Shown one piece after another: positions 32,760 through 48,854 of a DNA stretch of 60,810 bases. The position numbers and the translations under genes are program-made. This DNA comes from an uncultured Planctomycetales bacterium (lineage in GTDB: Bacteria; Planctomycetota; SZUA-567; JAFGNG01), in the NCBI GenBank assembly GCA_964577825.1, contig CAZOBJ010000006.1:1-60810 (forward strand), given 5' to 3'. Position 1 is the stretch's first letter. Every line of letters begins with the position of its first letter. Below the pieces are notes generated by a model. The model was not told where the DNA came from. It was given only the letters and a program-made list of their open reading frames with translations, and searched no databases.

Positions 32760-33848
32760 TCAGGGGGTCGGGGGTTGCGGAAGGTCGGCGCGACCCGCGC
32801 CCGCGCGCAGTTCCGGGCGCCAGGAGTGGTCGCGCGCGTCGGGGAGGTTGCGGCGCACCACGGTCTCCGCTTCGGGCAAGGGCACGCCCGGGTCCACGAG
32901 CGCGCGCACGCGGTCGAGCACGCCCTGGCGCTCGGCCTCGCGGCGCTGCGCCTGGGCCTGGGCGCGGTCCAGGGCCTCCCTGGCCGCCCGGTCGCGCGCG
33001 CGCAGGAACGCCTTGCTCAACGACCCGCCCACGAACGCGTAGAAGTGGTCCATGCTGCGCAGGTAGATCTCCGCGTCATAGGGCCGCGACTCGGTGTGGT
33101 GGTCGCGCGCGAACAGGTACACCTCGCGCGCTGCGGACCCGTGGCGCGTGTCAAAGACCTGCTGGCGGTACCAGAGCACCCCCGGCGGCGCGCCCAGGCC
33201 TCGTGGCACGCCCCATTGCACCAGGTCCACGAGCGCCTGGGCGGCCGCCTCCGTGCGGCCCGTGGCCACCACGCGCACCGTGGCCGTCAGGCGCGGCCGG
33301 TAGTACGGGTCGAAGTCGGTGGCCACGCCCGTGACCACCGCGTCCACGCCCAGCATGCGGCCGACCTTGATGGCGTCGTCGCGGTTGTGCGTGGGATCGA
33401 GAACCGGCTTGGCCACGGGCTCGCCGGGGCTCGCTTCGCGTTCCTCGGTCTTTGCGGGCCGCACGCCCAAGAGCGCGTTGCGATGCACCTGGGCGTTGTG
33501 CCGCCGGATGGCCCGGTTCTCCGCCTCCACGGCGGCGGCCACCTCGGCTGGAAAGACGACTTTCAGCTCGCCCTCGCCGGCCAGCTGAGCAGCCATCGAT
33601 TGGGCGAACCGGTCCGCATCGAACGAGGAGTCGCCGGTCAGGTCCTCGAAGGGCAGCACCGCCACCCGCTTGAGCGTGCTCAGGGCCGCGGGGTCGCCCT
33701 CACGCTCCTCATAGGACTGCACGGGTTGCAGGGACCGGGTCGCCGAGCGCGTCAGCCACGGCTCGCCGCACCCGGCCAGCGCCGCGCAGGCCAGGCCCAC
33801 GCCCGCAAGCCGCATCCACAGGTTCGCGCGCCCGCGTGTCCGGCGCAT
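32760..33848 (-). CDS. lipoprotein with CsgG/TolB-N/LpoB-like alpha-beta domain, 362 aa
   Basis: ATG 33848 after GGAG; lipobox LAGC. KRVAVLPFEDLTG and AIKVGRMLGVDAVVTG resemble CsgG/TolB-N superfamily motifs. Family call is tentative. Confidence 0.65.
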   Translation of the reverse strand: MRRTRGRANLWMRLAGVGLACAALAGCGEPWLTRSATRSLQPVQSYEEREGDPAALSTLKRVAVLPFEDLTGDSSFDADRFAQSMAAQLAGEGELKVVFPAEVAAAVEAENRAIRRHNAQVHRNALLGVRPAKTEEREASPGEPVAKPVLDPTHNRDDAIKVGRMLGVDAVVTGVATDFDPYYRPRLTATVRVVATGRTEAAAQALVDLVQWGVPRGLGAPPGVLWYRQQVFDTRHGSAAREVYLFARDHHTESRPYDAEIYLRSMDHFYAFVGGSLSKAFLRARDRAAREALDRAQAQAQRREAERQGVLDRVRALVDPGVPLPEAETVVRRNLPDARDHSWRPELRAGAGRADLPQPPTP

Positions 33849-33884
33849 GGTTGTCTCCACAGGTGCAGATGCCCTACGGTCCGG

Positions 33885-35147
33885 CTACTCGGCCGGCATC
33901 GCCTCGTCGGGCGCGGTCGCTCCCTCCGCCTCCTCAGGCATGGGGCTCGCGTGCGCGACCATGCCCGCCACCACGGGCTGCAGGCTCCACACGTTCTCGT
34001 GCCCGTTGCGCAGGCTGTGGAAGAAAAGCCGCCCCGGCCGGCTTCCGTTCGCCGGGTCCGGCCCCCAGGCCGGGCCCCAGTCCGGGGCGCTGTGGCTCGT
34101 GATCTGGGTGAGGTCCTCGCCCTGTTCGTGGACCACCCAGATGTCGTCGGCCTTGTAGATGCGCGCCTCCCACTGCGCGCCCGGGCTCTTGCGCACGCTG
34201 GCGAACGCGATGTAGTGCCCGTCCGGGCTCCAGCAGGGGTTGATGGCCGCCCACTGGTCGCTGAACACCACGTCGCGCGGCGCGCCCGCCAGCTCCACGG
34301 CCCCGTTGTCGTCCACGACCAGGGGAATCGTCCAGATGCCGTACCAGGGCACCCGGCGCTCGCGGTGCTTCTGGTACACGAGCGTGTAGAGCATCCGCCC
34401 GTCGGGGCCCGCCTCCGCCACGGGGCGGAACTCGGGGAACAGCCCCTCCGTGACCGCGCTCATGAACCGGGTCTGCATGTCCAGGACCCAGATGCGCCAG
34501 ATCCCGTCCATGCTGCTGTACCGGCTGAACGCGAGCAGCCGCCCGTCCGGGCTCCAGGACGGGTGGATCTCGTCCTCCGCGCTGCGGGTGAGCTGGCGTG
34601 GACGCGTGCGCGGCGTGCGGTCGGCCGCGGCGACCAGGATGTCCCAGTTGCCGTACCGGTTCGAGCACCAGGCGATCTGGTCCCCGTCGGGGCTGAACTT
34701 GGGCATCATGTCGCTGGCCGGGTCGCTCGTGTACAGGGTGACGGTCTTGCCGGCCACCGACTGGGTCACGATGTCCGGGTTGCGGCTGTAGCGCGTGGTG
34801 GCAAAGGCCATCCGCTTGCCCGTGCGGTCCACGTCCACGTCGTAGTCGCCGCCGCCCTCGGCAAAGGTCTGCTGGGAGATGCCGTCGAACCCGGTGCTGG
34901 TGATCATGTTCTCGAGCTCGTCCGGCCGGTAGGCCCCCTCCTGGAAGAGCTGCGGATCGTAATGGAAGCCCATCTGCCGCTTCTCTTCGGGGTCCACCGG
35001 GTCGCGGCGGGGCGCGGGCGCCTCGGCGGGCTCTTCGGCCGCGGGCTCCGGCCGGTCAAAGGGCTTGGTGAACGCGTCCGCGAGCATGCAGCCCGACAGG
35101 CCCGCACATGCCAGGGCCGCGGCGGCGAGGCCGGTCCAGCGCTTCAT
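33885..35147 (-). CDS. TolB-like beta-propeller (PD40 repeat) lipoprotein, 420 aa
   Basis: ATG 35147 after GGAGAG; lipobox LSGC; repeats PKFSPDG, PSWSPDG, PCWSPDG and PAWGP. Confidence 0.85.
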   Translation of the reverse strand: MKRWTGLAAAALACAGLSGCMLADAFTKPFDRPEPAAEEPAEAPAPRRDPVDPEEKRQMGFHYDPQLFQEGAYRPDELENMITSTGFDGISQQTFAEGGGDYDVDVDRTGKRMAFATTRYSRNPDIVTQSVAGKTVTLYTSDPASDMMPKFSPDGDQIAWCSNRYGNWDILVAAADRTPRTRPRQLTRSAEDEIHPSWSPDGRLLAFSRYSSMDGIWRIWVLDMQTRFMSAVTEGLFPEFRPVAEAGPDGRMLYTLVYQKHRERRVPWYGIWTIPLVVDDNGAVELAGAPRDVVFSDQWAAINPCWSPDGHYIAFASVRKSPGAQWEARIYKADDIWVVHEQGEDLTQITSHSAPDWGPAWGPDPANGSRPGRLFFHSLRNGHENVWSLQPVVAGMVAHASPMPEEAEGATAPDEAMPAE

Positions 35148-35380
35148 GAGCAGCTCTCCTCCCAAACGATGAGGCGGCTTGGCCGCAGCTTCCGGTCCAG
35201 GTGACCGCCGGCTTGCGGCGCAGCCTGTGTGTGTTATCGGTCAACGAGCCGGGAATCCTTCAACGGAATTCGGAAAGACTCGCGCCCGGGCCCGCCCGAC
35301 TTGCGGCGATCCGCCCTGCGCGCGCGCCGCCGCGGTCCGGGGCCTGGGCGCCGCGCGCGCAAAAACTGGAATCAATGCGT

Positions 35381-35408
35381 TTGACAGGCCGCAAACCGAC
35401 GATATAGT
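35381..35408 (+). promoter_or_regulatory. near-consensus sigma70 promoter for the small ORF and FliD-like gene
   Basis: TTGACA-N16-TATAGT. Confidence 0.65.
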
Positions 35409-35469
35409 GTGATTGTACAGGCTGTAACGCGGCCCGGGTTATCGGACCTGTGTCATAAGGAGAGACGGC

Positions 35470-35676
35470 GTGGCGCTCGAGCCGGTCGATGCAGGCACCA
35501 GGGCCCCGGCGGCCTACTCGGAACTCTCCCAGACCTCCCAGCAACTGGACCGCGCCGAACAGGCCCAGCGGCGCCCGCCCCCGGAGGAGACCGATCGGGA
35601 GCGCGAAGAGGCCCGCGCCGAGGAGCCGCCGCCGCCCCAGGAGCATCTGGGCAGGCAGATCGACGTGCTCGCGTAA
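35470..35676 (+). CDS. small protein with YjfB-like C-terminus, 68 aa
   Basis: GTG after AAGGAG; Glu/Pro-rich; ends HLGRQIDVLA, resembling the GxxIDxxA terminus of YjfB-type small motility-associated proteins. Confidence 0.6.
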   Translation: MALEPVDAGTRAPAAYSELSQTSQQLDRAEQAQRRPPPEETDREREEARAEEPPPPQEHLGRQIDVLA

Positions 35677-35734
35677 CGAACCGGCCGCCACGGACGGTGG
35701 CCGCAACACGTCATCCACGGAAGGATGACCCACT

Positions 35735-37966
35735 ATGCGAGTTCCCCCGCCGGCCCCTGTCGCGGGACGCGCGGCCCTGGCGCAGGCCCTCGGCCTGGCA
35801 GGCGCCTATGCGCGCCCCAGGGCCAACCGCAACGCGCAGCCCCGACCCCAGGGCGGACGCCTCCACCCAACGCACACGACGCATCGACGCGATCCGCTCG
35901 GCGCACTGCGCAGCGCGCATGTGCAGGTCAATGCGCCGGACGCGAACGCCGCTCCTTCGTCCCGGCGCGCCCAGTCTGCCGACGGGCAGTCCGCCCTGCC
36001 CCGGGACGCCGGGGCCCAGCCGGCGGCCGACGAGGCGCAGTCGCTCGAGCCGCCCCTCGAGTACGAGGTGCCCCTGGGCGAGAGCGGCGTGGGCGACGTG
36101 GGCGATCCGCGGCTGGCCACCGCGCTCCTGCGCCTGTTCGCGTTCGAGGCCCAGCACGCCGCGGCCCAACGTCGCAAGGCCGTCGAACAAGGCGTGATCC
36201 GGCCCCGCACGAACATCGAGCTGCACACGGTCCTGGACGAGTCCGCGCGTCCCGTGCCCGTGGCCGGCAAGACCGAGACCACGGGCGACACGAACGGCAA
36301 CGGCGCACACGAGACCGTGATGCGCGAACTCGCGTATTTGAGCGACCGGCGGCGCCTATTCATCCAGCAGGGCGGCCTGCTCTACGGCCTTCAGTCGCGG
36401 CCCATGCCCCGGATCCTGCACGCGGGCACCGCGGCGAGTGCGCGCAGCGTGTACGACGCGCGCGCGCAGCTGCGCCGCGTGAACCGCCCCACCGGCGTGG
36501 AGGTGGTCCGGGGACTCGCGTCCGAGGAACTGAACCGCACCCTGGAGGCCCTCGGCCCGGTGGAGAAGGCCCTGCGCGAGCTGTCCGAGACCCTGCACGA
36601 ATTGACTGCGGACGAAGCCCTGGCCGCGGCGTCTGTGGACAGCGACTCCCCCGCGGTGCGGGCGAGCTTGCGCGCGCGCACCGCGCCCGTGGGCGCGTAC
36701 CAGGTCCGCGCAGAACAGGTCGCCACTGCACACACCGTGGAGAGCGACTACTTCCCCGCGCGCAGCCTCACCGACGACCCTCTGGGTCTGTCGGGCAGCT
36801 TTACACTCAACGGCACGACCGTGACCGTGGAGGCCGAGGACACGCTCTGGGACCTGGCCGAGGCCATCACCTGGGGCGAGGACCGCAATCGCAACGGCGC
36901 CCTGGACCGGGCCGAGGACTTCTACGGCCCCGACGCGGAGGACTACGCCGAGGACCGGAACGACAACGGCCGGCTCGACGGCGGCACGCGCGCGCACGGG
37001 GTGCGTGCCGAGGTGCGCGACCGGCGGCTGCGCCTGACCGCGGCCCAACCCGGGCCCGAGCCAATCCAGGTCACGGATCCCGACGGCATCCTCGCCGAGC
37101 TCGGGCTCGTCGACACGGTGGACGGGCGCCTCCAGTTCGCGCACGAGGTCACGGCGCCCGCGCGCGCGCGCCTGTCCGTCGACGGGCAGGCCCTGGAGGC
37201 GGCCACGAACACGGTGGACGAGGCCATCGACGGCGTTCGCCTGACCCTCCACGAAGCGACCGATTCGCCGGTGGAGGTGACGGTTTCCGCGGACGCCGAG
37301 GCCCTGGCCGAGGAACTGAGCGGTCTCGTGGACACGTTCAACAACGCCATGCGCGCGCTCAACCGTGCTCTCGACTCGCAGACCGGGCTCTTGCACGACG
37401 TGGAGCACGTGGCCCGCGTTCGCATCGACCTGCGCGACCAGAGCACCGCGCCCGTGCCCGCGCAGCCGGCCGCCTACGACGAGCCCGAGGAGGCGGGCCT
37501 GTCCGCGCAGCCGGGGCGGCCGATCACGTTCCACCGCGCGCAGCTGGGCGCGGCCCTCCAGGACCTGAAGATGCGCCTCACCGGCCTGGGCGAAGACCTG
37601 CGGCCTCTCCAGCGCCAGACGGGCACGGCCTCGGTGTACAACGCCCTGGACCGGATCGGCATCACCGCGGCCGACGACGACACCCTGGCCCTGGACCGGG
37701 ACAAGCTCGCCCAGGCCGTGGCCGACGACCTGCCGGCCGTGCGCGGCCTGTTCGGCAAGCCGGAGGGGTACGTGCCCCGGCTCGCGCGCACCGTGGACGG
37801 GGCCGTGCGCACGGACTCCGGGCTCCTGCCCCTTGCGCGCGCGCGCACCGAGCAACTTCTCCGAGCCGTCACCGTCACCCGCCTGCGCGAGGCCTGGATT
37901 GGCGCCCAGCGAAGCGCGCTCAGCCCTGCGGGCGAGTCTCGGCTGCTCCTGCGCGCCTTGGCCTAG
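35735..37966 (+). CDS. FliD-like (flagellar cap-like) protein with a long novel N-terminal extension, 743 aa
   Basis: FliD-N-like GAYQVRAEQVATAH; flagellin-IN-like GSFTLNGTTVTVEAEDTL; FliD-C-like VDGQALEAATNTVDEAIDGVRLTL, SGLVDTFN and IGITAADDDTLALDRDKLAQAV...VRGLFG. Confidence 0.72.
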   Translation: MRVPPPAPVAGRAALAQALGLAGAYARPRANRNAQPRPQGGRLHPTHTTHRRDPLGALRSAHVQVNAPDANAAPSSRRAQSADGQSALPRDAGAQPAADEAQSLEPPLEYEVPLGESGVGDVGDPRLATALLRLFAFEAQHAAAQRRKAVEQGVIRPRTNIELHTVLDESARPVPVAGKTETTGDTNGNGAHETVMRELAYLSDRRRLFIQQGGLLYGLQSRPMPRILHAGTAASARSVYDARAQLRRVNRPTGVEVVRGLASEELNRTLEALGPVEKALRELSETLHELTADEALAAASVDSDSPAVRASLRARTAPVGAYQVRAEQVATAHTVESDYFPARSLTDDPLGLSGSFTLNGTTVTVEAEDTLWDLAEAITWGEDRNRNGALDRAEDFYGPDAEDYAEDRNDNGRLDGGTRAHGVRAEVRDRRLRLTAAQPGPEPIQVTDPDGILAELGLVDTVDGRLQFAHEVTAPARARLSVDGQALEAATNTVDEAIDGVRLTLHEATDSPVEVTVSADAEALAEELSGLVDTFNNAMRALNRALDSQTGLLHDVEHVARVRIDLRDQSTAPVPAQPAAYDEPEEAGLSAQPGRPITFHRAQLGAALQDLKMRLTGLGEDLRPLQRQTGTASVYNALDRIGITAADDDTLALDRDKLAQAVADDLPAVRGLFGKPEGYVPRLARTVDGAVRTDSGLLPLARARTEQLLRAVTVTRLREAWIGAQRSALSPAGESRLLLRALA

Positions 37967-39011: not shown

Positions 39012-39965
39012 ATGATCGACGTCGAACATCTCTCCAAGTCCTACGGGCCCCGGCCCGCGCTCGTGGACCTGAACCTCCACGTGTCCGCAGGGGGCGTGGT
39101 GGGGTTGCTGGGCGTCAACGGCGCGGGCAAGACCACGCTCATGCGCATCCTCACCGGGTTCCTGACCCCGACCGCGGGCCGCGCGCGCGTGTGCGGGTAC
39201 GACGTGGAGGCCGACCCCCTGGCCGTGAAGCGCCGGGTGGGATACCTGCCCGAGACCACGCCTCTGCATCCGGAGCTTCGGGTCACCGAGTTCCTGGCCT
39301 ACCGGGCCCGGCTCAAGGGGCTCGCCCGCTCCGCGGCGCGCGACGCCGTGGCCCGCGCAATCGACCGCGCCGGGCTGCGCGAGGTGGCGGACCGGATCAT
39401 CGGCCAGCTCTCGCGCGGCTACCGGCAGCGCACCGGGCTCGCCGAGTGCCTGCTCGTGGACGCGCCCCTGCTCGTGCTCGACGAGCCCACCGCCGGGCTC
39501 GACCCGCACCAGGCCCGCGAGACCCGGGCGCTCGTAACCGAGCTCGGGCGCGACCATACCGTGCTCCTGTCCACGCACATCCTGCATGACGCGGAGCTCA
39601 TGTGCCAGGAGGTGGTGATCATCCACGAGGGCCGTCTCGTGGCCGTGGACAGTCCCCAGGCCCTGTGCGCGCGCCGGCCCGGCCCGCGGGCCCTGCTCGT
39701 GGCCGTGGGCGCGCCGCAGGGGGCCCGGGTGGCCGAGGCGCTCACGGGCCTCTCGGGCGTGCGCGCGGCCGACGAGGTCGCGGGCACGGACGAGGCGCGG
39801 CGGTGGCGGCTGTCCGTCGACCGGACCGAACAGGCCCGCCAAGCCGTGCCCGGCCTGTGCGCCCAGCAGGGCTGGACCCTGTGCGAGCTGCGGCTCGAGC
39901 CCGTGCGCCTGGAGGACATCTTCGCGGACCTGACCGCCGCTTCGCAGCGCGAGGGCGTGTCGTGA
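39012..39965 (+). CDS. ABC transporter ATP-binding protein (GldA-like), 317 aa
   Basis: Walker A GVNGAGKT, signature LSRGYRQR, Walker B LVLDEPTAG and H-loop STH. Confidence 0.93.
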   Translation: MIDVEHLSKSYGPRPALVDLNLHVSAGGVVGLLGVNGAGKTTLMRILTGFLTPTAGRARVCGYDVEADPLAVKRRVGYLPETTPLHPELRVTEFLAYRARLKGLARSAARDAVARAIDRAGLREVADRIIGQLSRGYRQRTGLAECLLVDAPLLVLDEPTAGLDPHQARETRALVTELGRDHTVLLSTHILHDAELMCQEVVIIHEGRLVAVDSPQALCARRPGPRALLVAVGAPQGARVAEALTGLSGVRAADEVAGTDEARRWRLSVDRTEQARQAVPGLCAQQGWTLCELRLEPVRLEDIFADLTAASQREGVS

Positions 39966-42478
39966 TCGAACCTGCGGGCCTCGGCGACCTGATGGTGCGG
40001 ATTCTGACTCTGCGGGCGTTCCCGTTCCTGTCCGCGGCCTGGGTGGTGTTCCTCGTGGTGCGAGCGCTTGTGCTCGCGCCGATCGTGGGCCTCTTCGTGA
40101 GCGCCCAGATGCGCCGGGAGTGCCTGTCCATCGCCGTGGCGCCGGTCACCTACATCGTGGCCACCCTGTTTGTGTTCATCACCTCGCTCGTCTTCTATCT
40201 CGCGCCGCTGGAGAACCCGGTGGCGAGCTTCGAGCCGGTGGCCATCTACATCAAGTTCCTGGGCATCTTCTTCGTGCCCCTGTTGACCATGCGGCTGGTG
40301 GCCGAGGAGCGGCGCAGCGGCACGATCGAGCTCCTGCTCACCGCGCCCGTGCGCATCCGGGAGGTGGTGCTCGCCAAGTTCGGCGCGGGGTTCTTGTTCT
40401 TCCTGGGGATGCTCGCGCCGTGCGCGGTGTATGCGGCGCTTCTGATGTGGATGGGCGACCTGGACGGCGGCGAGACGCTCGCCAGCCTGGCCGGGCTCGC
40501 GCTGCTGGGCGCGGCCTACACCTCGATCGGGCTCTTCGCCTCGAGCTGCACCCGCAGCCAGGTGGCCGCGGCCATGAGCGCGACCGCGGTCTCGCTCGTT
40601 TTGTGGCTCGTGTGGCACCTCGGCGACGAGGCGACCGTCCTGGGCCGGATCTGGCAGGGGCTCAGCTTCAAGGGGCACCTGGACACCTCGTTCACCAAGG
40701 GCGTGGTGGACAGCGCGGACGCCCTGTACTTCCTGAGCGTAACCGGGTTCTTCCTGTTCCTGGCCGGGGCGGTGCTGCGCGCGGGCGCGGCGCTCGGGGC
40801 CGGGCTGCGCGGACCGGGCCCGCGGCGCCCGTTCGCGGCGCTCGTGGCCGCCGTGGTGGGCGGCGAGGCGCTCCTCTTCCTGGTCGCGGTCCTGCATGTG
40901 ACGGGGCTCTCCCTGGCGCAGGTGCCGCAGGTGTGGCGCGCGGCGGCGTGGCCGGTTCTCGTCTGGATCGTCGCACCCGCCGCGGTGGCCATGGCCGGGG
41001 GCCTGACAACGCTTCTTCTCTTGCGGCGCGCGATGGCCGCGCGCGTGCGCCGGCTCGCGGCGCAGACCCGCCTGCCCGCCACCCTGGTGGGGGCGACGGG
41101 CGCGCTCCTCGTGCTTGTGAACGCGAACGTACTCGCCGGATGGTTCGCCTGGCGCCAGGACGTAAGCGAAGCGCGCCTGCACGCGCTCAGCCCGCAGACC
41201 GAGCGCGTACTCGACGCGCTCGATGAGCCCGTGCACATCACCGTGTTCTACAGCAGCCAGGACCGGTACGACGGATATCCGCTGCTCAAGCGCACCCGCG
41301 GCCTGCTGGAGGAGTACACCGCCCGCTCGTCCCAGGTGCTCGTCACCTACCTGGACCCGGACGCTTCGCTTGAGCGCGCGGCGCGCGTGGCCAGAGAAAA
41401 GGGCCTGGACCTCGAGCGGCTCGCGGAGTTCGCGCTCGTGGAGCACCGCGGACGCCGCACCGTGGTCCCCTGGGTGTACGTGGCCCACGAGCAGCGCGAC
41501 CTGCGCGGGCGCAGCAACCGGGTGTTCCGCGGCGAGCTCGCGTTCACCAACGCGATCCAGCAACTGCGCACCACCCGCACCCCGCACGTGTACGTGACCG
41601 AGGAACACGGCGAGTACAACGCCTTCAGCCACGTGCACGCCGACCGGAGCATGGGCGCGTTCGCGCGGGAGCTGCGCCGCAACGGGTGCGAGGTTCACCG
41701 CCTGGGCCTGGTGCCGGAGACCGAGATTCCCGCCGACTGCGACATGCTGGTCCTGGCCGGTCCGTCCCGACCCTTCGGCACGCCCGAGCGCACGGCCCTG
41801 CGCGCGTACCTGGACAACGGCGGACGGGCCTTGTTCCTCGTGGACCCGCCGCCCGCGCCCGGGCTCTCGTACGGGCTGGACAAGGTTTTGGCCCGCTACG
41901 GCGCGCTTCTGCAGCAGGACCTTGTCTACGATCCGCGCAACGCGGTCGGCGGACGCCAGGGCATCGTGCTCGCGGAGGGCAGCACCGAGCACCCGATCAC
42001 CCGGCTCGAAGGGGGGCTCGTCTGCTACCTGCGCGCGGCCCAGTCCGTGGGCGTGCGCAGCGCCCCGGGCGTGTCCGAGGACTGGAACCTCTCGTATCTG
42101 TTGGCCACGGGGCCGAGCGCGATCTCCGTGACCCTGCAACGGTCCGGCGACGAGAAGCCGCGCACCCGGCGGGGCTCGTTCCCCTGCGCGGCCGCGCTCC
42201 AGGGGCCAAAGGGCGCCCGGATCGTGGTCGTGGGCGATGCGGACCTGGCGGGCAACCCGGACATCGACAAGGCGCACAACCGCGTGTTTCTCGTCTCCGC
42301 GGTGCAGTGGCTGCTTGATCGGAAGGACACCTTGTCCATTCCCTCGCGTGCGGACCGCAGCCGGCGGCTGGAGTACACCGCCCTGCGGCGGCGGACGGTC
42401 TTCTGGACGGCGGTGGTGGGCGTGCCGCAGATCTATCTGCTCGTCGGCGCGCTCGTGTGGTGGCGGCGGCGACAGTAG
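39962..42478 (+). CDS. ABC-2 permease (GldF-like) fused to a GldG-like periplasmic domain, 838 aa
   Basis: GTG overlaps the upstream TGA. TMRLVAEERRSGTIELLLTAP...VLAKF. Then DVSEARLHALSPQT, GEL.FTNAI, EEHGE, LAGP...F and VVGDAD; C-terminal TM. Confidence 0.82.
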   Translation: MIEPAGLGDLMVRILTLRAFPFLSAAWVVFLVVRALVLAPIVGLFVSAQMRRECLSIAVAPVTYIVATLFVFITSLVFYLAPLENPVASFEPVAIYIKFLGIFFVPLLTMRLVAEERRSGTIELLLTAPVRIREVVLAKFGAGFLFFLGMLAPCAVYAALLMWMGDLDGGETLASLAGLALLGAAYTSIGLFASSCTRSQVAAAMSATAVSLVLWLVWHLGDEATVLGRIWQGLSFKGHLDTSFTKGVVDSADALYFLSVTGFFLFLAGAVLRAGAALGAGLRGPGPRRPFAALVAAVVGGEALLFLVAVLHVTGLSLAQVPQVWRAAAWPVLVWIVAPAAVAMAGGLTTLLLLRRAMAARVRRLAAQTRLPATLVGATGALLVLVNANVLAGWFAWRQDVSEARLHALSPQTERVLDALDEPVHITVFYSSQDRYDGYPLLKRTRGLLEEYTARSSQVLVTYLDPDASLERAARVAREKGLDLERLAEFALVEHRGRRTVVPWVYVAHEQRDLRGRSNRVFRGELAFTNAIQQLRTTRTPHVYVTEEHGEYNAFSHVHADRSMGAFARELRRNGCEVHRLGLVPETEIPADCDMLVLAGPSRPFGTPERTALRAYLDNGGRALFLVDPPPAPGLSYGLDKVLARYGALLQQDLVYDPRNAVGGRQGIVLAEGSTEHPITRLEGGLVCYLRAAQSVGVRSAPGVSEDWNLSYLLATGPSAISVTLQRSGDEKPRTRRGSFPCAAALQGPKGARIVVVGDADLAGNPDIDKAHNRVFLVSAVQWLLDRKDTLSIPSRADRSRRLEYTALRRRTVFWTAVVGVPQIYLLVGALVWWRRRQ

Positions 42479-42492
42479 CCCGGGGAGAGTTC

Positions 42493-44331
42493 ATGCGCTG
42501 GCGAACCGCACTCACACTCCTGGCCGCAGGCCTTGCGCTCACCGCGGTGAGCGCCGGGGTGGCCGTGTACCGCACCCACGCGCGCGCACAGGCCGCCCGG
42601 CAGGAACGGCTCGTGCCCGTGCGCATGCGCGAGGTCGTCTCCTTCATCCGCAGGGTACCGGGCGCCGGGGAGGTGTCTTGCCGCCGGGACAAGGACGGAA
42701 CCTGGTGGGTGGACGCGCCCTTCCGGGACCTGGCCAGCCAGGGGGTGATCGAGGAGCTCGCCGCCCTGGTCGAGTACGGCCGCGGCGAGCCCGTGCCTGC
42801 GGTCGACACACCCGCCTTCGACGCGCCCGAGGCGACCCTGATCTTGCGCACGTCCGAACAGGAGGTCTCCGTAGACTTCGCGCAGGCCGAGGACGAGGAT
42901 ACTGTATTCGCCCGCGTATCGGAGGCGCCGGACCGCGTCTACGCCCTGGACCCGGAGCTCGCCCGCGCGGCGTTGCGCCCGGCCGCGGCGTACCGGAGCC
43001 TGCAACTCTTCCCTCGCGGCCTGGAACAGGCCCAGGCCCTCACCCTGGAGGGCGTGCCCGGCGGCACCGTGCTCCTGCGCCGCGGGGCCAAGGGCTGGAC
43101 GCTCCGCGCGCCGGTGGCCTGGCCCGCGGACGCGCCCCGGGTGGACAAGCTCCTGCGCCGCTGCGCCACCCTGCGCGCGACCGGCGTCATCGCCCAGGGC
43201 CCACAGGCGCGCCTCCCCGAGGAGACCGAGGGCACGGTGCTCGTGCGCGCGGAGCTCCCCGAGGCCGCGGCACAGGTGCGGCTCGCCCCGCCCGAGCCCG
43301 GCCAGGAGCACGGTCGCGCCTGGGTGGTCGACCGAGACGTCCTCTTCGCAGTGCCCGACCGATTGCGATCGGTCCTGGCCCGCCGTCCGGTGGACCAGTA
43401 CCGCCGCCACCGGCTCGACTTGCTCGCGTCCCTGGACCTGCCCGAGGCGCTGCGCGCGCGCACCAAGCCCGAGGATCGGCTCGGGTACCTGGTGGAGCGC
43501 ATCAGCGAAATCCGCCTCGAACATCCCGGCCAGCGGGTGCGCCTGGTCCACGGCGCCATGCACTGGCAGGCCACCGCGCCCGAGCGATTCCCTGTGGACC
43601 GGCAGGTCCTCACCGCGCTCGTTCGCACCCTGCGCGACCTGGAGGCGCAGGACTTCGCCCCCGAGGCGCAGGCATCCGCGCACGAGCTGGACGACCCGTT
43701 CCTGGTCGCGCGCGTGTTCGACGAGACGGGCACCGAGGCGGCGGTCCTGCGCGTGGGCGCGCGCACGGACCGGGGCACCCGCTTTGCCGCGACGGGCGCG
43801 CGGTCGGCCGTGTTCACCCTCTCCGCGCGGGACGTCGCGGTCCTCTCGCAGCCCTGGCCCCAGTTCCATGAGCGGCGGCTGTGCGCGGTCCACCCCAAGC
43901 ACCCGGTGCGCCTGAGCGTCTTTCGGAACGGCACGGAGACCCGGTACCGGCGCGCGCGCGGCGACTCGTGGCAGATGGTCCTGCCCAAGACCCTGCCCGT
44001 GGACAACTGGGCCTTCTACACCGGGCCGCTGAGCCAACAGGGGTTCGGGGGCCTGAAGGCCGTGGCCGTGGCCGCGCCCGCCGCCGGGGATCTGGCCCGA
44101 TTTGGCCTTGACCCTCCCCGGCTGCGTGTGGTATTGGAATACGCTTCGCCCGAACAGGCGCAGCGGCAACAGACCTCAACGTTCACGCTGGCGATCGGCG
44201 GGCCTGCCAAACACCACGGCGAGGAGGCCCGATACGCCCGCGTTCCCGGCAGCAAGGTCGTGGTGGTCGTGCCGGGCGAGTTCGTGGACATGCTGGAGAA
44301 GGATTACACCGACCCGTCCCTGCTCGAGTGA
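42493..44331 (+). CDS. DUF4340-like membrane-anchored periplasmic protein with repeated domains, 612 aa
   Basis: N-terminal TM; repeated W..P....AD and FGLDPPRLRV-like segments; typical position after GldG-like genes. Confidence 0.65.
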   Translation: MRWRTALTLLAAGLALTAVSAGVAVYRTHARAQAARQERLVPVRMREVVSFIRRVPGAGEVSCRRDKDGTWWVDAPFRDLASQGVIEELAALVEYGRGEPVPAVDTPAFDAPEATLILRTSEQEVSVDFAQAEDEDTVFARVSEAPDRVYALDPELARAALRPAAAYRSLQLFPRGLEQAQALTLEGVPGGTVLLRRGAKGWTLRAPVAWPADAPRVDKLLRRCATLRATGVIAQGPQARLPEETEGTVLVRAELPEAAAQVRLAPPEPGQEHGRAWVVDRDVLFAVPDRLRSVLARRPVDQYRRHRLDLLASLDLPEALRARTKPEDRLGYLVERISEIRLEHPGQRVRLVHGAMHWQATAPERFPVDRQVLTALVRTLRDLEAQDFAPEAQASAHELDDPFLVARVFDETGTEAAVLRVGARTDRGTRFAATGARSAVFTLSARDVAVLSQPWPQFHERRLCAVHPKHPVRLSVFRNGTETRYRRARGDSWQMVLPKTLPVDNWAFYTGPLSQQGFGGLKAVAVAAPAAGDLARFGLDPPRLRVVLEYASPEQAQRQQTSTFTLAIGGPAKHHGEEARYARVPGSKVVVVVPGEFVDMLEKDYTDPSLLE

Positions 44332-45248: not shown

Positions 45249-45326
45249 CCCGTCCCAGCCGCCTGCGGGCGGGCTGGGTGGTCCTCTCTCCTTGAAGCCG
45301 CCCGCCCTGCCCCCGGAGGAGGCCGC

Positions 45327-46058
45327 ATGAGCACGCAGGCCGGGTACGTCCTGGCGCTCACGACCGCGGCCGAGCCCGGTGGCGTGGCCCTGATCGACGG
45401 CCGGGGCGCGGTGCGGGCGGTGCGCGCCCTGGCTGCGCAGTTGCGCGGCGGACGGGGCCTCCTGCCCGCGGTCACCGACTGTCTGGACCATGCCGGTGTG
45501 GGACTCCAGGACCTCGCCGGAATCGCCGCGGACACGGGTCCGGGGTCGTTTACCGGGCTGCGCGTGGGCGTGATGACGGCCAAGACCCTGGCCTGGGCGC
45601 GGAGCTTGCCGATCGTGGGGGTGACAAGCCTCGACGCCCTGGCCTGGGAGGCGCGCGACCGGGCCCGGGTCGTGGCCGCGGTGCTGCGCGCGCGCCGGGC
45701 CGAGGTCTACGCCGCGGTGTACGACTGCTCTGCGCAGCGTATCGAGCGCCGCGGCCCGGTGCAGGCCCTCAGCCCCGAAGTCCTCTCCGAACAACTTGCC
45801 GCGCTCGAGCCGGGCGCCAAACTCGTGGGCAATCCGGGCGAGACCCTGGACCCGGACGAGCTGCGCACGCATACGCACATCGAGGGCTTGCCCGACCCGG
45901 CTGGGCCCTCGGCCCAGGCCGTGGCCGAGCTCGGATGGCGGGCCCTGCGCGACCGGCCCGCAGGTGACGACCTGCACGCCCTGCAACCCGTGTATCCGCG
46001 CCGGGCGGACCGGCCCATGCCCGTGCTCGGCGAGCCGCCCACGGACGACACCCCATGA
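45327..46058 (+). CDS. tsaB: tRNA threonylcarbamoyladenosine biosynthesis protein TsaB, 243 aa
   Basis: GPGSFTGLRVG, SLDALA, ARRAEVY and PVY; RBS GGAGG. Confidence 0.88.
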   Translation: MSTQAGYVLALTTAAEPGGVALIDGRGAVRAVRALAAQLRGGRGLLPAVTDCLDHAGVGLQDLAGIAADTGPGSFTGLRVGVMTAKTLAWARSLPIVGVTSLDALAWEARDRARVVAAVLRARRAEVYAAVYDCSAQRIERRGPVQALSPEVLSEQLAALEPGAKLVGNPGETLDPDELRTHTHIEGLPDPAGPSAQAVAELGWRALRDRPAGDDLHALQPVYPRRADRPMPVLGEPPTDDTP

Positions 46059-47686
46059 ACGTGGGACAGCGCATCCTGCGCGCGTCGCTTGTGGTGATGC
46101 TCGCGCACGTCATCTTCAAGTTCGCAGGCCTCGTCCAGTTCAAGGCCCTGGGCCACTACTGCGATCCCGTGACCCTGGACCTCTTCATCTTCTCGTTCGT
46201 CGGGGTGCTGTGGACCTTTTACCTGATCGGCGAGGAAGGGCTCGGGCCCGCGTTCCTGCCCGTGTTCATGGAGGCCTTTGACAAGAAGAGCGAGCGCGAC
46301 GCCTGGCGGTTCGCCAGCAGCGTCATCACCGTGCAGGTCCTGGTCATCGCCGTGGTGGTGAGCCTCGTGGCCGCGTTCCCCGAGACCGTGGTGCGGCTCT
46401 TCTCGGACTGGGACGACCCCGAGGCCCTGGCCGCGTACATGCAGCGCGCGCCGCGCATGGTCCGCGGCATGATCCCCGCGCTCTTCGGCCTGTCGGTCGG
46501 GTCGACCACCTACCTCGTGCTCAACGGGTACAAGCGCTTCTTCCTGGCTGCGTTCGGCGACTCCGTGGTCAAGTTCGCCATCATCGCGGGCGTGCTCGCG
46601 AGCGTGGCCACGGGCGGGTCGCTGACCGACTGCCTGATCGCGGGCGTGCTCGTGGGCGGATTCGCCAAGGTGGCCACGCACTTGTTGGGTCTGCGCCGCG
46701 AGCTCTGGCAGTTGCGGCCCAACCTGAATCTGCGCACCCGGGCCTGGCGGCGGTTCGCGTTCCTGGTGGCGCCGCTTCTTTTGGGGATTCTCTTCGGCAA
46801 GGTGCGCGACGTGTTCAACAACATCTGGGTCCTCTCGCACACGCACGAGGCGGGCCTGGTGGCCTACAACGAGTTCGGCCGCAAGATCTTCAACGCGATC
46901 GGGTACCTGGTGCCCTACTCGGTGAGCATCGCCATGTACCCGTTCTTCTGCGAGCTCGTGGACCGCGAGGAGCGCGGCGAGATGGCGCGCCTGGTGACCC
47001 GCAGCGGGCAGATTCTGTGGGTGCTGGTCGTCCCGGTGACCGCGCTCGTGGTCGCGCTCTCGCTCCCCTTGGCGCGGCTCATCTTCCAGGGCGGGCAGTT
47101 CGACCTGGAGGCCGCGCGCCTGGCGGCCACGGCCAATGCGTGCTACACCCTGGTCCTGCCCTTCTTCACGCTCGAGTACGTGTTCATGCAGACCTTTTTC
47201 AGCCATCGGCGCATGGTCACGCCCATCGTGCTGGGGCTCGTGTTCAGTACGCTGAGCATGGTCCTCAGCTGGCTGGGCGTGGTCGCGTACGGGCTCACGG
47301 GCGCGGCGGCCGTAGCCGCGGTGGCGCTCGCGTATGCGCTCAGCCGGACGCTGAAGACCGTGAGCCTGGGCGTGCTCCTGCGCCGGTTCCTGCCGGACCT
47401 CGACGGCGCGCACGCGGGCTCCTTCGCCCTGCGCATGGCCGCGGCCGGGCTCGCGACCGGGGGCGCCGCGTACCTGGCCCGCAAGGGGTGCGAGGCCGTG
47501 ACCGACGTGTATGCCGGCCAGACCGTCGCCGAGGTCGCGGCGGCCGTGGTGCCCTGCCTCGCGTCGGGGTCGGTCGCGGGCGGGGCGGTGTACCTCGCCG
47601 CGCTGCGTGTGCTTTGCCCGGCCGAGTGGCGCGAGGCGGTGCGCTGGATCCGCGCGCGCCTGGCCGCGCGCCGCGCGGGCCGGTAG
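46055..47686 (+). CDS. murJ: MurJ/MviN family lipid-linked glycan flippase, 543 aa
   Basis: About 14 TM; GEEGLGPAFLPVF, LNGYKRFF, YPFF, IFQGGQFD and F(S)HRRMVTP. The ATG overlaps the tsaB stop. Confidence 0.82.
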   Translation: MNVGQRILRASLVVMLAHVIFKFAGLVQFKALGHYCDPVTLDLFIFSFVGVLWTFYLIGEEGLGPAFLPVFMEAFDKKSERDAWRFASSVITVQVLVIAVVVSLVAAFPETVVRLFSDWDDPEALAAYMQRAPRMVRGMIPALFGLSVGSTTYLVLNGYKRFFLAAFGDSVVKFAIIAGVLASVATGGSLTDCLIAGVLVGGFAKVATHLLGLRRELWQLRPNLNLRTRAWRRFAFLVAPLLLGILFGKVRDVFNNIWVLSHTHEAGLVAYNEFGRKIFNAIGYLVPYSVSIAMYPFFCELVDREERGEMARLVTRSGQILWVLVVPVTALVVALSLPLARLIFQGGQFDLEAARLAATANACYTLVLPFFTLEYVFMQTFFSHRRMVTPIVLGLVFSTLSMVLSWLGVVAYGLTGAAAVAAVALAYALSRTLKTVSLGVLLRRFLPDLDGAHAGSFALRMAAAGLATGGAAYLARKGCEAVTDVYAGQTVAEVAAAVVPCLASGSVAGGAVYLAALRVLCPAEWREAVRWIRARLAARRAGR

Positions 47687-47705
47687 CCGGTTCGAGGACC
47701 CAGAC

Positions 47706-48854
47706 ATGCGACCCGTGCGCGTGCTCCACTGCCTGGAGGCCACCCGCGGGGGCACGGCCCGCCACCTGGAGATCGCCGCGCGCACCCTGCCCGGCCTGGG
47801 CGTGGACCTGCACGCCGCGGTGAGCCCCACGCGCAATCCCGAATTCCCCGGCGCCCTGCGCGCGCTTCTGGGCCCCGAGCGCGTGCACGTGGTGCCCATG
47901 GGCCGGTCCATCCGCCCCGGGCGCGACGCAGCCGCGTATCGTGCGCTCGTGCGCGTGGTGCGCGCGGTCCGTCCGGACCTTGTGCACACGCACGCGAGCA
48001 AGGCCGGGTTCCTGGGCCGGCGGGCCGCGCACGCCTGCGGCCTCCCGGCGGTGCACACGCCGCACGTGTACGCCACGCACTGGGCGCGCGGCGCGCGCAA
48101 GGGCCTGTACGCGGTGCTCGAGCGCGTGGCCGCCCGGTGGACGAGCGCGCTTGTGGCGCTGCACGAGGAACAGGTGCACGCCGCGCGCGCGCTTGGCGTG
48201 CCCGAGGCGCGGATCGCGTGCATCCCCAACGGCGTGGAGACCGACCGCTTCGCCCCGCCCAGCCCCGCACAGCGGGCGCGCATCCGCCAGGAATACGGGT
48301 TCAACCCTCAGACCCGGGTGGTGGGCACGCTGTCTCGGCTCGACGCGCAAAAGGGCGTGGACGTATTCCTGCGCGCGGCAGCGGCCACGCGTCGCGCCTT
48401 CCCCTACGCCCGGTTCCTGATCGCGGGCTCGGGTCCGCTGGAGGGCGAGCTGCGCGCCCAGGCGCGCGCCATGCGCTTCGGCGACCAGGTGCGGTTCCTG
48501 GGCCCGCGCGAGGACGTGCAGGCCCTGTATCACGGCCTGGACGTGTTCGCGCTCACGAGCCGCTGGGAGGGCATGCCCTACGCGATCCTGGAGGCCATGG
48601 CCTGCGGTCTGCCCGTGGTGGCCACGGGCACGGCGGGCGCGCGCGCGCTCGTGGCGCCCGGACACACCGGCAGCCTGGCCCCGGTCGGCGACGTGGAGGC
48701 CCTGGCCGGCGCGATCTGCGCGTATCTCGGGGACGCGCGCCTGCGCGAGCGCGAGGGCCGGCGCGCGCGCGAGCTCGTGTGCGCACGGTACACGGCCCGG
48801 GCCTGGGCCCGAGCGCACCTGGAGCTGTATCAGCAAGTCTTGGCAGGCGACTGA
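47706..48854 (+). CDS. GT4 glycosyltransferase, 382 aa
   Basis: GGTARH, HTHASKAG, PNGV, KG, and E-x7-E motif EGMPYAILE. Confidence 0.9.
   Translation: MRPVRVLHCLEATRGGTARHLEIAARTLPGLGVDLHAAVSPTRNPEFPGALRALLGPERVHVVPMGRSIRPGRDAAAYRALVRVVRAVRPDLVHTHASKAGFLGRRAAHACGLPAVHTPHVYATHWARGARKGLYAVLERVAARWTSALVALHEEQVHAARALGVPEARIACIPNGVETDRFAPPSPAQRARIRQEYGFNPQTRVVGTLSRLDAQKGVDVFLRAAAATRRAFPYARFLIAGSGPLEGELRAQARAMRFGDQVRFLGPREDVQALYHGLDVFALTSRWEGMPYAILEAMACGLPVVATGTAGARALVAPGHTGSLAPVGDVEALAGAICAYLGDARLREREGRRARELVCARYTARAWARAHLELYQQVLAGD

What the first reader, a model, noticed from the sequence alone, without database searches (positions are those of the whole stretch)
32760..37966. Candidate undescribed surface-appendage or export locus: two lipoproteins divergent from a YjfB-like peptide and an orphan FliD-like protein
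Seen: a TolB-like propeller lipoprotein and a CsgG/TolB-N-like lipoprotein are transcribed divergently, across a 322-nt promoter region, from a 68-aa YjfB-like ORF and a 743-aa FliD-like gene. No flagellin, fliS or other flagellar gene is in the window. Known: fliD normally lies beside fliC/fliS/flaG; CsgG-type lipoproteins can form outer-membrane secretion rings. Inference: a shared-promoter module for a modified filament cap or a non-flagellar fibre with its own envelope assembly factors. This is my top candidate for a new system, but the linkage is unproven.
Basis: partly seen in the sequence, partly recalled or inferred. Interest (0 to 1): 0.72.

Follow-up and report, generated by a model that had tools for sequence, protein, structure and literature searches.

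The report
Planctomycete flagellar-cap and lipoprotein gene neighbourhood
An uncultured planctomycete keeps a divergent flagellar cap gene and a small conserved peptide gene back-to-back with two outer-membrane lipoprotein genes that carry a flagellar-type (sigma-28) promoter, so the lipoproteins are probably undescribed flagellum-associated envelope parts and not a new kind of fibre or secretion system.

Summary
All four ORFs exist as described, and no other flagellar gene lies in the 60.8-kb window. The 743-aa protein is a true but divergent FliD. It has a full-length cap fold plus a conserved N-terminal domain of about 120 aa, also present in at least 16 other 50%-identity clusters. The 68-aa peptide is conserved, but no profile supports the YjfB label. 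One lipoprotein is a TolB-type beta-propeller. The other has a PelC/TolB-N/LpoB/FlgT-type alpha/beta domain followed by a long helix.

The linkage is real but graded:
- The full four-gene arrangement recurs in two other Planctomycetota genomes with unrelated flanking genes.
- Peptide(s) plus the lipoprotein pair, without FliD, occur in two more.
- Peptide plus FliD, without the lipoproteins, occur in one more.

The new observation is a promoter-like motif upstream of the propeller gene, GTTGAAG-N15-G(A/G)CCGATAA. It is present in all 7 independent loci where that region is available (GC 43-71%), and its -10 element matches the sigma-28/FliA consensus. The peptide-FliD unit has a sigma-70-type promoter instead.

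Best reading: this is a late-flagellar regulon module, in which the lipoprotein pair is a candidate envelope or outer-membrane accessory of the flagellum. A non-flagellar fibre is not supported. The rest of the genome could not be searched for flagellin or sigma-28.

The parts
32760..33860 (-). Lipoprotein gene (366-aa ORF; the database cluster starts at ATG 33848, 362 aa). It has a PelC/TolB-N/LpoB/FlgT-type alpha/beta domain (about aa 44-233) followed by a long C-terminal helix (aa 259-318).
   Evidence: ORF; lipobox LAGC. No Pfam, NCBIfam or PDB sequence hit. AF2 pLDDT 71.5. Foldseek PDB: PelC 5t0z E 4.7e-6, TolB, LpoB, 8z5n LPHT ring, CsgG, FlgT. Eight family members, the named ones from Planctomycetota MAGs.
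33885..35165 (-). TolB-like beta-propeller (PD40) lipoprotein gene. Probable start ATG 35147 (420 aa). It lies 24 nt upstream of the lipoprotein gene on the same strand, so the two likely form an operon.
   Evidence: PD40 E 2.9e-26; TIGR02800 94 bits, below cutoff 343. PDB TolB propeller E 4e-10. Directly upstream of the lipo366 homologue in 8 of 9 loci with enough flank.
35234..35276 (-). Sigma-28/FliA-type promoter-like motif for the PD40-lipoprotein operon: TTTCCG-N6-GTTGAAG-N15-GACCGATAA. The -10 element lies about 85 nt upstream of ATG 35147.
   Evidence: Single occurrence in the window, 0 expected in 100 shuffles. Present upstream of the PD40 gene in L013, L014, L016, L017, L020 and L024. 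Invariant blocks sit in otherwise unconserved DNA. Consensus -10 GCCGATAA taken from PMC12784957.
35381..35408 (+). Sigma-70-type promoter for the peptide-FliD unit: TTGACA-16-TATAGT.
   Evidence: 11/12 match, the only hit in 32.5-38.3 kb. Equivalent TTGAC(A/T/G)-N17-TAnAnT is seen upstream of the peptide gene in L013, L014, L016, L001 and L024. No conserved sigma-54 site.
35437..35445 (+). Conserved TTATCGGAC element in the 5' leader of the peptide mRNA. The reverse strand reads GTCCGATAA. Role unknown.
   Evidence: Present in the three GC-rich four-gene loci only.
35470..35676 (+). 68-aa conserved peptide gene (GTG start, SD AAGGAGAG). N-terminus MA(I/L)xP(V/I)xG; C-terminus PxG(K/L)Gxx(I/V)D(I/V)xA; variable, charged middle that looks disordered.
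   Evidence: ORF. Homologues in L013, L024, L001, L014 (two copies) and L016 (two copies). No family or PDB hit. Annotated hypothetical.
35682..35729 (+). Two RNA hairpins between the peptide and FliD genes. The second (35710-35729, GUCAUCC-ACGGAA-GGAUGAC) holds the FliD Shine-Dalgarno region and has an A-N-GGA loop (CsrA-site-like).
   Evidence: MFE -27.1 kcal/mol, z -4.15. The motif CAUCC-A(C/G)GGA(A/G)-GGAUG is conserved before the FliD start in L013, L001 and L024. Covariation is not significant with 4 sequences.
35735..37966 (+). Divergent FliD (filament cap) gene, 743 aa. Layout: variable leader (about aa 1-105), conserved N-terminal extra domain (about aa 105-235), then the FliD D0-D1-D2-D3 core (aa about 235-743) with an Asp/Asn/Gly-rich insert (aa 381-418).
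   Evidence: Pfam and NCBIfam. PDB FliD profile hits at 5e-19. AF2 core pLDDT 85-95, Foldseek 9gnz E 5e-20. The N-domain is shared with P0002, P0014, P0021 and at least 12 further clusters.

Best explanation
This locus is a late-flagellar gene neighbourhood of an uncultured Planctomycetota lineage, made of two divergent transcription units.

Unit 1 has a sigma-70-type promoter. It encodes a small conserved peptide that looks intrinsically disordered, then a divergent but complete filament-cap protein, FliD. That FliD carries a clade-specific N-terminal domain. Its ribosome-binding site sits in a conserved hairpin with an ANGGA loop, which suggests translational control of the CsrA type (inferred).

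Unit 2 has a sigma-28/FliA-type promoter. It encodes two lipoproteins: a TolB-like beta-propeller, and a PelC/TolB-N/LpoB/FlgT-fold protein with a long helix.

Inferred mechanism: once sigma-28 becomes active late in flagellar assembly, or in the motile swarmer phase, the two lipoproteins are made. They assemble at the inner face of the outer membrane around or near the flagellar exit site. There they would act as a collar or H-ring-like accessory, or help outer-membrane passage or sheath formation, while FliD caps the growing filament. The peptide is most likely a small late-flagellar factor that works with FliD or with this regulatory switch.

Shown: the gene identities and folds, the conserved synteny, and the conserved promoter motifs. 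Inferred: which sigma factor is used, where the lipoproteins sit, their ring-forming role, and the peptide's function.
For: FliD identity: FliD_C 75 bits; PDB FliD hits at 5e-19; full-length fold match to the cap-filament complex 9gnz at E 5e-20, 503 aligned columns. Nitrospina relatives lie next to flagellin and FlgN. NCBI names the L013 orthologue FliD.

Synteny: the four-gene arrangement occurs in the window, L013 and L024 with different flanks. Peptides plus the lipoprotein pair occur in L014 and L016. Peptide plus FliD occur in L001.

Promoter: TGAAG-N15-G(A/G)CCGATAA lies upstream of the PD40 gene in 7 of 7 independent loci spanning 43-71% GC. Spacing is fixed and the spacer is not conserved. 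L017, L020 and L024 have the exact GCCGATAA. The sigma-28 consensus is from PMC12784957.

Fold of lipo366: it belongs to a family that includes ring-forming outer-membrane lipoproteins (PelC, CsgG) and the Vibrio flagellar H-ring protein FlgT and LPHT ring. The H-ring helps outer-membrane penetration of sheathed flagella, and some planctomycetes are reported to have sheathed flagella (PMC7175336).

CsrA occurs in Planctomycetia (PMC12316311).
Against: Only 3 of the 7 lipoprotein-pair loci whose upstream region is available have FliD adjacent. The two most distant (L017, L020) have neither peptide nor FliD and lie beside phage-like genes. L015 has the lipoprotein alone, without the motif.

The -35 element is TGAAG rather than TAAAG, and the spacer is 2 nt longer than in P. 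aeruginosa fliC. An ECF or other group-3 sigma factor cannot be excluded.

No bona fide flagellar gene from the same lineage could be checked for the motif. No flagellin, fliA or basal-body gene is in any fetched locus.

lipo366 matches FlgT only weakly (E 1.5e-2, TM about 0.3) and has no FlgT, FlgO or FlgP profile hit. Its best match, PelC, is a polysaccharide-export protein. No multimer or localisation evidence exists.
Confidence: 0.5

Rival explanations
1. The FliD gene and the peptide gene are ordinary dispersed flagellar genes. The lipoprotein pair is a general envelope system, either a split TolB-like / Tol-Pal-type maintenance module or a PelC-like polysaccharide-export accessory. It is expressed from an alternative-sigma promoter, for example for swarmer-cell envelope remodelling, without being part of the flagellum. 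On this view the adjacency reflects co-regulation or ancestry only.
For: The best fold match is PelC, then the TolB N-domain and LpoB. The propeller is TolB-like. The pair occurs without FliD in L014, L016, L017 and L020. The window is rich in polysaccharide-synthesis genes. Sigma-28-family factors also control non-flagellar genes in Chlamydia and Streptomyces (abstracts listed).
Against: No pel, tol-pal or polysaccharide-export gene is conserved next to the pair in any locus; the flanks all differ. The only recurrent neighbours are the peptide and FliD. The -10 element is the flagellar sigma-28 type.
Confidence: 0.3
2. The four genes encode a non-flagellar surface fibre or export device. Here the FliD-like protein caps or forms a different filament and the lipoproteins form its outer-membrane ring.
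For: No flagellin or T3SS gene is in the window or in any related locus. The FliD has an unusual N-terminal domain and leader. lipo366 shares a fold with ring-forming secretion lipoproteins.
Against: The protein retains the whole D0-D3 cap architecture. The same FliD clade in Nitrospina is flanked by flagellin and FlgN. The promoter is of the flagellar type. No candidate fibre subunit or export ATPase is conserved nearby. No Sec signal peptide is apparent by eye on the FliD N-termini (not run through a predictor).
Confidence: 0.07
3. The adjacency has no functional meaning. It is inherited gene order within one clade, and the conserved intergenic motif is a regulator site unrelated to sigma-28.
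For: All full four-gene loci come from fairly related GC-rich Planctomycetota. The linkage is broken in several loci.
Against: Flanks on both sides differ in every locus while the core persists at 43-64% protein identity. The motif has the two-block, fixed-spacer anatomy of a promoter at the right distance from the start codon, and it survives a shift from 43% to 71% GC.
Confidence: 0.1

Closest known systems
FliD / HAP2 flagellar filament cap (Pfam FliD_N PF02465, FliD_C PF07195; structures 9gnz, 6sih, 5h5v)
   Same: FliD_C domain above threshold. The predicted D0-D1-D2-D3 fold aligns over about 500 columns with the Salmonella and Campylobacter caps.
   Different: About 235 extra N-terminal residues: a variable leader plus a conserved 120-aa domain with YxVPxGESG and RL(F/Y)xFExxHAAA motifs that match no known family. 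An Asp/Asn/Gly-rich insert in the head. Far below every NCBIfam FliD equivalog cutoff (66 vs 387 bits). No fliS, fliT, flaG or flagellin neighbour. Preceded by a small peptide gene.
Vibrio H-ring / LPHT-ring proteins FlgT, FlgO, FlgP (3w1e, 8z5n)
   Same: Periplasmic or outer-membrane-associated flagellar accessory proteins built on a TolB-N-like alpha/beta domain. lipo366 hits 8z5n chain 0 (E 5.7e-4) and FlgT 3w1e (E 1.5e-2). Late-flagellar-type regulation is inferred here.
   Different: No sequence-profile match to FlgT, FlgO or FlgP. TM-scores are only about 0.25-0.3. Here the partner is a PD40 beta-propeller lipoprotein, which is not a described H-ring component to my knowledge. No basal-body genes are nearby.
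PelC (Pel polysaccharide export lipoprotein, dodecameric ring; 5t0z, 5t10, 9h80)
   Same: Best structural match for the alpha/beta domain of lipo366 (E 4.7e-6, TM on target 0.55-0.66). Both are lipoproteins.
   Different: lipo366 is more than twice as long, with an inserted helix and loop, a conserved C-terminal region and a 60-residue helix. No pelA-G genes are nearby and sequence identity is 10-14%.
TolB (Tol-Pal system)
   Same: The PD40 propeller is most similar to the TolB propeller. lipo366 resembles the TolB N-terminal domain. Together the two genes look like a TolB split into two lipoproteins.
   Different: The TIGR02800 score is 94 against a cutoff of 343. Both proteins are lipid-anchored, whereas TolB is soluble. 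No tolQRA or pal genes are nearby. The promoter is sigma-28-type.
YjfB 'putative motility protein' family (PF14070)
   Same: Similar size (60-70 aa), a motility-gene context and, from my memory of the family, a C-terminal (L/K)Gxx(I/V)D(I/V) motif.
   Different: No hit to the Pfam profile at E<=10 for any of 8 peptides. The promoter is sigma-70-type, not sigma-D/28-type. NCBI annotates the homologues as hypothetical.

Membership tests
FliD (flagellar filament cap) | FliD_C domain above Pfam gathering score | tested here: met
   75 bits against a cutoff of 25.4, residues 478-698
FliD (flagellar filament cap) | FliD_N domain / N-terminal D0-D1 helices | tested here: inconclusive
   FliD_N 21.1 bits, just under the 24.8 cutoff, covering profile positions 28-97 only. 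AF2 predicts helices 233-292 that align with the FliD D0/D1 helices.
FliD (flagellar filament cap) | Overall D0-D1-D2-D3 fold | tested here: met
   Foldseek 9gnz_U E 5.3e-20, TM on target 0.62; 36 PDB hits at E<=1e-3, all of them FliD
FliD (flagellar filament cap) | Encoded beside flagellin, fliS, fliT or flaG | tested here: not met
   None in the window or in L001, L013, L021 or L024. Met for the Nitrospina relatives.
FliD (flagellar filament cap) | Oligomeric cap on a flagellin filament in the same organism | not testable with these tools
   The rest of the genome could not be reached, and no multimer prediction was available.
YjfB putative motility protein (PF14070) | Match to the family profile | tested here: not met
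   No hit at E<=10 for 8 peptides in Pfam or NCBIfam
TolB | TolB equivalog score, with the N-terminal alpha/beta domain and the propeller in one soluble protein | tested here: not met
   TIGR02800 93.9 bits against a cutoff of 343, propeller part only. The protein is a lipoprotein, and the N-domain-like fold is on the neighbouring gene product.
CsgG / PelC ring-forming outer-membrane lipoproteins | Sequence family membership and operon context (csg or pel genes) | tested here: not met
   No Pfam hit and no csg or pel genes nearby. Only fold similarity: PelC E 4.7e-6, CsgG E 1.2e-2.
CsgG / PelC ring-forming outer-membrane lipoproteins | Oligomeric ring | not testable with these tools
   Only a monomer prediction was possible.
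FlgT/FlgO/FlgP flagellar H-ring proteins | Profile match or clear structural equivalence | tested here: inconclusive
   No FlgT, FlgO or FlgP Pfam hit at E<=1. Foldseek 8z5n_0 E 5.7e-4 and 3w1e E 1.5e-2, with TM about 0.25-0.3.
Sigma-28 (FliA)-dependent promoter | -10 element GCCGATAA | tested here: met
   ACCGATAA in the window, L013, L014 and L016; exact GCCGATAA in L017, L020 and L024. Consensus from PMC12784957.
Sigma-28 (FliA)-dependent promoter | -35 element TAAA(G) at the canonical spacing | tested here: inconclusive
   TGAAG (4/5 match) is invariant, but the spacer is 2 nt longer than in P. aeruginosa fliC. The cited paper states that the sigma-28 spacer is not conserved in length.
Sigma-28 (FliA)-dependent promoter | A FliA-family sigma factor in the genome, and the same motif upstream of flagellin or che genes | not testable with these tools

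The most novel reading that the evidence does not exclude
The TolB-like propeller lipoprotein and the PelC/TolB-N-fold lipoprotein form a previously unrecognised, sigma-28-controlled outer-membrane collar of the planctomycetal flagellum. It would be an H-ring analogue, possibly tied to outer-membrane penetration or a flagellar sheath. It would work together with an N-terminally extended FliD and a small conserved peptide that links the two units, for example as an exported regulator of the divergent sigma-28 promoter.
Probability: 0.3. Interest if true: 0.7.

Novelty: new variant of a known kind. Interest (0 to 1): 0.55.

Why it matters
As far as I know and as far as my searches found, the regulation and accessory components of flagella in Planctomycetota have not been characterised experimentally. 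This locus offers three concrete, testable leads:
- A sigma-28-type promoter motif that can be used to define the late-flagellar or swarmer regulon of the phylum.
- Two candidate envelope components of the flagellar machine, built from TolB-like parts.
- A widespread FliD subfamily with an extra N-terminal domain, plus a companion peptide of unknown function.

If the lipoproteins turn out to be motor or exit-site components, they would be another independent case of TolB-N-fold proteins being recruited to build periplasmic flagellar rings. That bears on how motor diversity evolved. If they are not flagellar, the motif still marks a conserved alternative-sigma regulon in an understudied phylum.

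Tried and rejected
- The first whole-protein homology search timed out.
- A GTDB genome scan with the single FliD sequence found nothing. With a 5-sequence profile it found only Nitrospina FliDs and two spurious Asp/Asn/Gly-motif hits.
- An exact-match lookup of the PD40 protein with the TTG start failed.
- The YjfB, FlgM and other family assignments for the peptide were rejected. No hit in Pfam, NCBIfam or PDB profiles.
- No CsgG, FlgT, FlgO or FlgP profile membership for lipo366.
- A sigma-54 promoter in the intergenic regions: no conserved site.
- Covariation support for the FliD-RBS hairpin is not significant with four sequences (127/500 shuffles). It is reported only as a conserved sequence motif with a plausible fold.
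- An alternative FliD start at GTG 35921, suggested by GC3 and by shorter homologues, was rejected. The hairpin-SD-ATG arrangement before 35735 is conserved in L013, L001 and L024.
- Literature searches for a planctomycete sigma-28 consensus or motor structure found nothing directly relevant.
- The extra motif hit at L016:16862-16889 lies inside an opposite-strand ORF with no downstream gene and is taken as chance.

Full report
**1.

The window is about 71% GC. The four ORFs are at the stated coordinates and show strong third-position GC of 0.87-0.96, as expected for real genes in this genome.

- Both minus-strand products have lipoprotein signal peptides (…LAGC, …LSGC).
- The propeller gene most likely starts at ATG 35147, behind GGGAGGAG.
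- The 68-aa ORF starts at GTG 35470, behind AAGGAGAG.
- Pfam scans of the other candidate ORFs picked across the window by length and GC3 found amino-acid, cofactor and sugar metabolism, an H+-pyrophosphatase, a GldG-like ABC transporter cluster and many glycosyltransferases. They found no flagellin, FliS, hook, basal-body or chemotaxis gene. ORFs under about 60-80 aa outside the locus were not scanned.

**2. What each gene is**

FliD-like protein (743 aa):
- It has a FliD_C domain well above threshold and a sub-threshold FliD_N. It falls far below the NCBIfam FliD equivalog cutoffs.
- A 7-sequence profile hits only FliD chains in the PDB (5e-19).
- The AlphaFold model has pLDDT 85-95 across residues about 260-575 and 635-730. 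It aligns over about 500 columns with FliD in the Salmonella cap-filament complex (E 5e-20). It is therefore a complete cap protein, not a fragment or a FliD-domain fusion.
- In front of the core lie a poorly conserved leader (about 105 aa here; 10-112 aa in relatives) and a conserved domain of about 120 aa. That domain carries the motifs YxVPxGESG and RL(F/Y)xFExxHAAA. It has no Pfam match and was not confidently modelled.
- An exhaustive HMMER search found 44 representative clusters at E<=1e-30. At least 16 carry these motifs. This is a sizeable, undescribed FliD subfamily rather than a one-off.
- The nearest relatives lacking the N-domain are Nitrospina/Nitrospinales FliDs. Those sit beside flagellin and an FlgN-family gene.

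Propeller protein:
- It has PD40 repeats and is most similar to the TolB propeller, but it scores far below the TolB equivalog cutoff. It has no TolB N-domain.

366-aa lipoprotein:
- It has no sequence-level relatives in Pfam, NCBIfam or the PDB.
- Its AlphaFold model (pLDDT 71.5) places its alpha/beta domain in the PelC / TolB-N / LpoB / GNA1162 / CsgG / FlgT fold group. PelC is the best match (E 4.7e-6). A chain of the Vibrio flagellar LPHT ring (E 5.7e-4) and FlgT (E 1.5e-2) are among the hits.
- A 60-residue helix follows the domain.

68-aa peptide:
- It belongs to a small conserved family. The N-terminus is MA(I/L)xP(V/I)xG, the C-terminus is PxG(K/L)Gxx(I/V)D(I/V)xA, and the middle is variable and charged.
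- None of eight members hits YjfB or any other Pfam or NCBIfam model at E<=10, nor any PDB chain.
- NCBI annotates the homologues as hypothetical. The YjfB label is not supported.

**3. Is the linkage real?**

Homologues of the 366-aa lipoprotein were found only in Planctomycetota MAGs and metagenomes. I recovered their contigs and mapped the four window proteins onto them.

- The propeller gene lies directly upstream of the lipoprotein gene in 8 of 9 loci with enough flank.
- One or two small peptide genes lie divergently upstream in 5 of the 7 lipoprotein-pair loci where that side is available: the window, L013, L024, L014 and L016.
- An N-extended FliD follows the peptide in 3 of them: the window, L013 (GCA_043802275.1) and L024.
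- In these three loci the proteins are only 43-64% identical and the genes flanking the block on both sides are unrelated (glycosidase / exonuclease III; nitroreductase-transketolase / poly(A) polymerase; metallo-beta-lactamase fold). Inherited gene order alone is therefore an unlikely explanation.
- L001 has peptide plus FliD without the lipoproteins. L021 has the FliD at a contig end.
- The two most distant pairs (L017, L020) have neither peptide nor FliD and lie next to phage-like genes. L015 has the lipoprotein alone.

The neighbourhood is conserved but modular, and the peptide is the common link.

**4. Regulatory anatomy (new)**

Sigma-28-type motif:
- Aligning the DNA upstream of the propeller gene from genomes of 43-71% GC shows three invariant blocks in otherwise unconserved sequence: TTTCCG, GTTGAAG and GACCGATAA. 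The 15-nt spacer has fixed length but no conserved sequence.
- The pattern TGAAG-N13-18-CCGATAA occurs once in the window (35234-35262, minus strand; 0 of 100 shuffles).
- Among the fetched loci it lies upstream of the propeller gene in L013, L014, L016, L017, L020 and L024. In L017, L020 and L024 the -10 block is exactly GCCGATAA. That makes 7 of 7 independent loci where the region is present.
- GCCGATAA is the consensus -10 element of sigma-28/FliA promoters. P. aeruginosa fliC reads TCTAAAG-N14-GCCGATAA, and the same paper notes that the sigma-28 spacer is not conserved in length (PMC12784957).
- Here the -35 block is TGAAG (4/5 match) and the spacer is 2 nt longer. I call the motif sigma-28-type and treat the assignment of the sigma factor as an inference.

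Sigma-70-type promoter:
- The peptide gene is preceded by TTGACA-16-TATAGT, an 11/12 match and the only such site in 5.8 kb.
- Equivalent TTGAC(A/T/G)-N17-TAnAnT sites occur in the other five loci.
- No conserved sigma-54 site exists.

RNA hairpins:
- Two hairpins lie between the peptide and FliD genes (z -4.15 in the window).
- The second has the sequence CAUCC-A(C/G)GGA(A/G)-GGAUG, directly before the start codon. It is conserved in the window, L013, L001 and L024. It includes the Shine-Dalgarno region and presents A-N-GGA in its loop, which is the form of a CsrA site.
- With four sequences the covariation is not significant. CsrA genes are reported in Planctomycetia (PMC12316311).

**5. Interpretation**

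The most economical reading is a late-flagellar module.
- FliD is the filament cap of a flagellum whose other genes are elsewhere. That its genes are dispersed is a feature of planctomycete genomes I know from the literature generally; I did not test it here.
- The lipoprotein pair is a member of the sigma-28-type regulon.
- The pair is built from a TolB-like propeller and a TolB-N/PelC/FlgT-fold domain, and both are lipid-anchored. It therefore most plausibly acts at the inner face of the outer membrane, at or near the flagellar exit. It could be a collar or H-ring-like structure, or a factor for outer-membrane passage or sheath formation.
- In Vibrio the H-ring proteins FlgT and FlgO, which share this fold group, are needed for outer-membrane penetration of the sheathed flagellum. 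Some planctomycetes are reported to have sheathed flagella (PMC7175336).

I put this at about 0.5. The main rival (0.3) is that the pair is a general envelope or polysaccharide-export accessory under an alternative sigma factor and merely neighbours flagellar genes. A separate non-flagellar fibre (0.07) is disfavoured by three findings: the intact cap architecture, the flagellin-linked relatives, and the absence of any conserved fibre subunit or export gene. Meaningless adjacency (0.1) is disfavoured by the changing flanks and the conserved promoter.

**6. Limits**

On present evidence it is the likelier situation. It would not undo the conserved link to the lipoprotein operon.
- The homology search is word-limited and missed known relatives; for example, the L013 FliD was not returned. 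Family sizes are therefore lower bounds.
- The structure models rest on shallow alignments of 7-8 sequences.

**7. Verdict**

The 'new surface-appendage or export system' interpretation is replaced by a new variant of flagellar accessory and regulon organisation in Planctomycetota. It contains three uncharacterised components (the lipoprotein pair, the peptide, and the FliD N-domain) and a usable promoter motif.

Noticed in passing
window 35437-35445 (+); L013 about 8330-8346; L024 peptide leader: The element ATTATCGGAC(A)C is conserved in the 5' leader of the peptide gene in the three GC-rich four-gene loci. On the opposite strand it reads GTCCGATAA, which is sigma-28 -10-like, but no conserved -35 accompanies it. 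It is absent from the AT-rich loci L014 and L016. It could be a second start site, an operator or an RNA element.
   Followed up: partly
window 36875-36988 (FliD aa 381-418); also L003, L005, L011, L012: An Asp/Asn/Gly-rich insert, GEDxNxNGxLD…EDxNxNGRLDGGT, lies in the FliD head domain. It is invariant across the planctomycete and Nitrospina FliDs. It resembles calcium-binding loops (from memory, untested). The same motif alone drew weak hits in Planctomyces and Kuenenia contigs.
   Followed up: no
L014 7673-8134 (-); L016 7534-7999 (-): In the two AT-rich loci the FliD position is taken by a second small peptide gene (67-69 aa) ending in EPGKGxxIDIxA. The first peptide there ends in G(R/H)(Q)INF(V/L)F. 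This is a tandem paralogous peptide pair with no FliD nearby.
   Followed up: partly
L017 1-6100; L020 1-2900: In the most distant relatives the propeller-lipoprotein pair keeps its sigma-28-type motif, yet it lies directly downstream of phage-like genes. These include a 'phage tail repeat' hit and large ORFs with a shared C-terminus NIGMTPAIYLG.
   Followed up: partly
L016 1434-6138 and L021 6554-9662: The peptide/lipoprotein locus of L016 and the FliD locus of L021 each lie a few kb from the infB/DUF503/rbfA genes (L016 also has nusA upstream). This hints at an older common chromosomal position for the whole block.
   Followed up: no
window 39012-44331 (+): Downstream operon: an ABC ATPase, a fused ABC-2 permease with a GldG-like auxiliary domain, and a DUF4340 protein. 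It is annotated elsewhere as gliding-associated ABC transport. It is not conserved next to the four-gene block in other genomes.
   Followed up: no
window 45300-60810 and 8760-18400: Two large cell-surface polysaccharide gene sets: MurJ-like flippase, many GT4/GT2 glycosyltransferases, a polysaccharide deacetylase fusion, an initiating sugar transferase, and a Wzy_C/TPR protein. They are relevant to the PelC-like rival reading but are not syntenic with the lipoproteins elsewhere.
   Followed up: no
L024 3422-3748 (-): A called 108-aa ORF lies between the sigma-70-type promoter and the peptide gene. It has no counterpart in other loci and is probably a spurious call within a leader of about 330 nt.
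   Followed up: no
L003 8895-9977, 7883-8479; L005; L022: In Nitrospina the related FliD is preceded by a DUF8042/TP0873_N protein and an unannotated 180-360-aa protein, and followed by an FlgN-family gene and a 61-156-aa ORF. This is a different but also non-canonical set of fliD neighbours.
   Followed up: no
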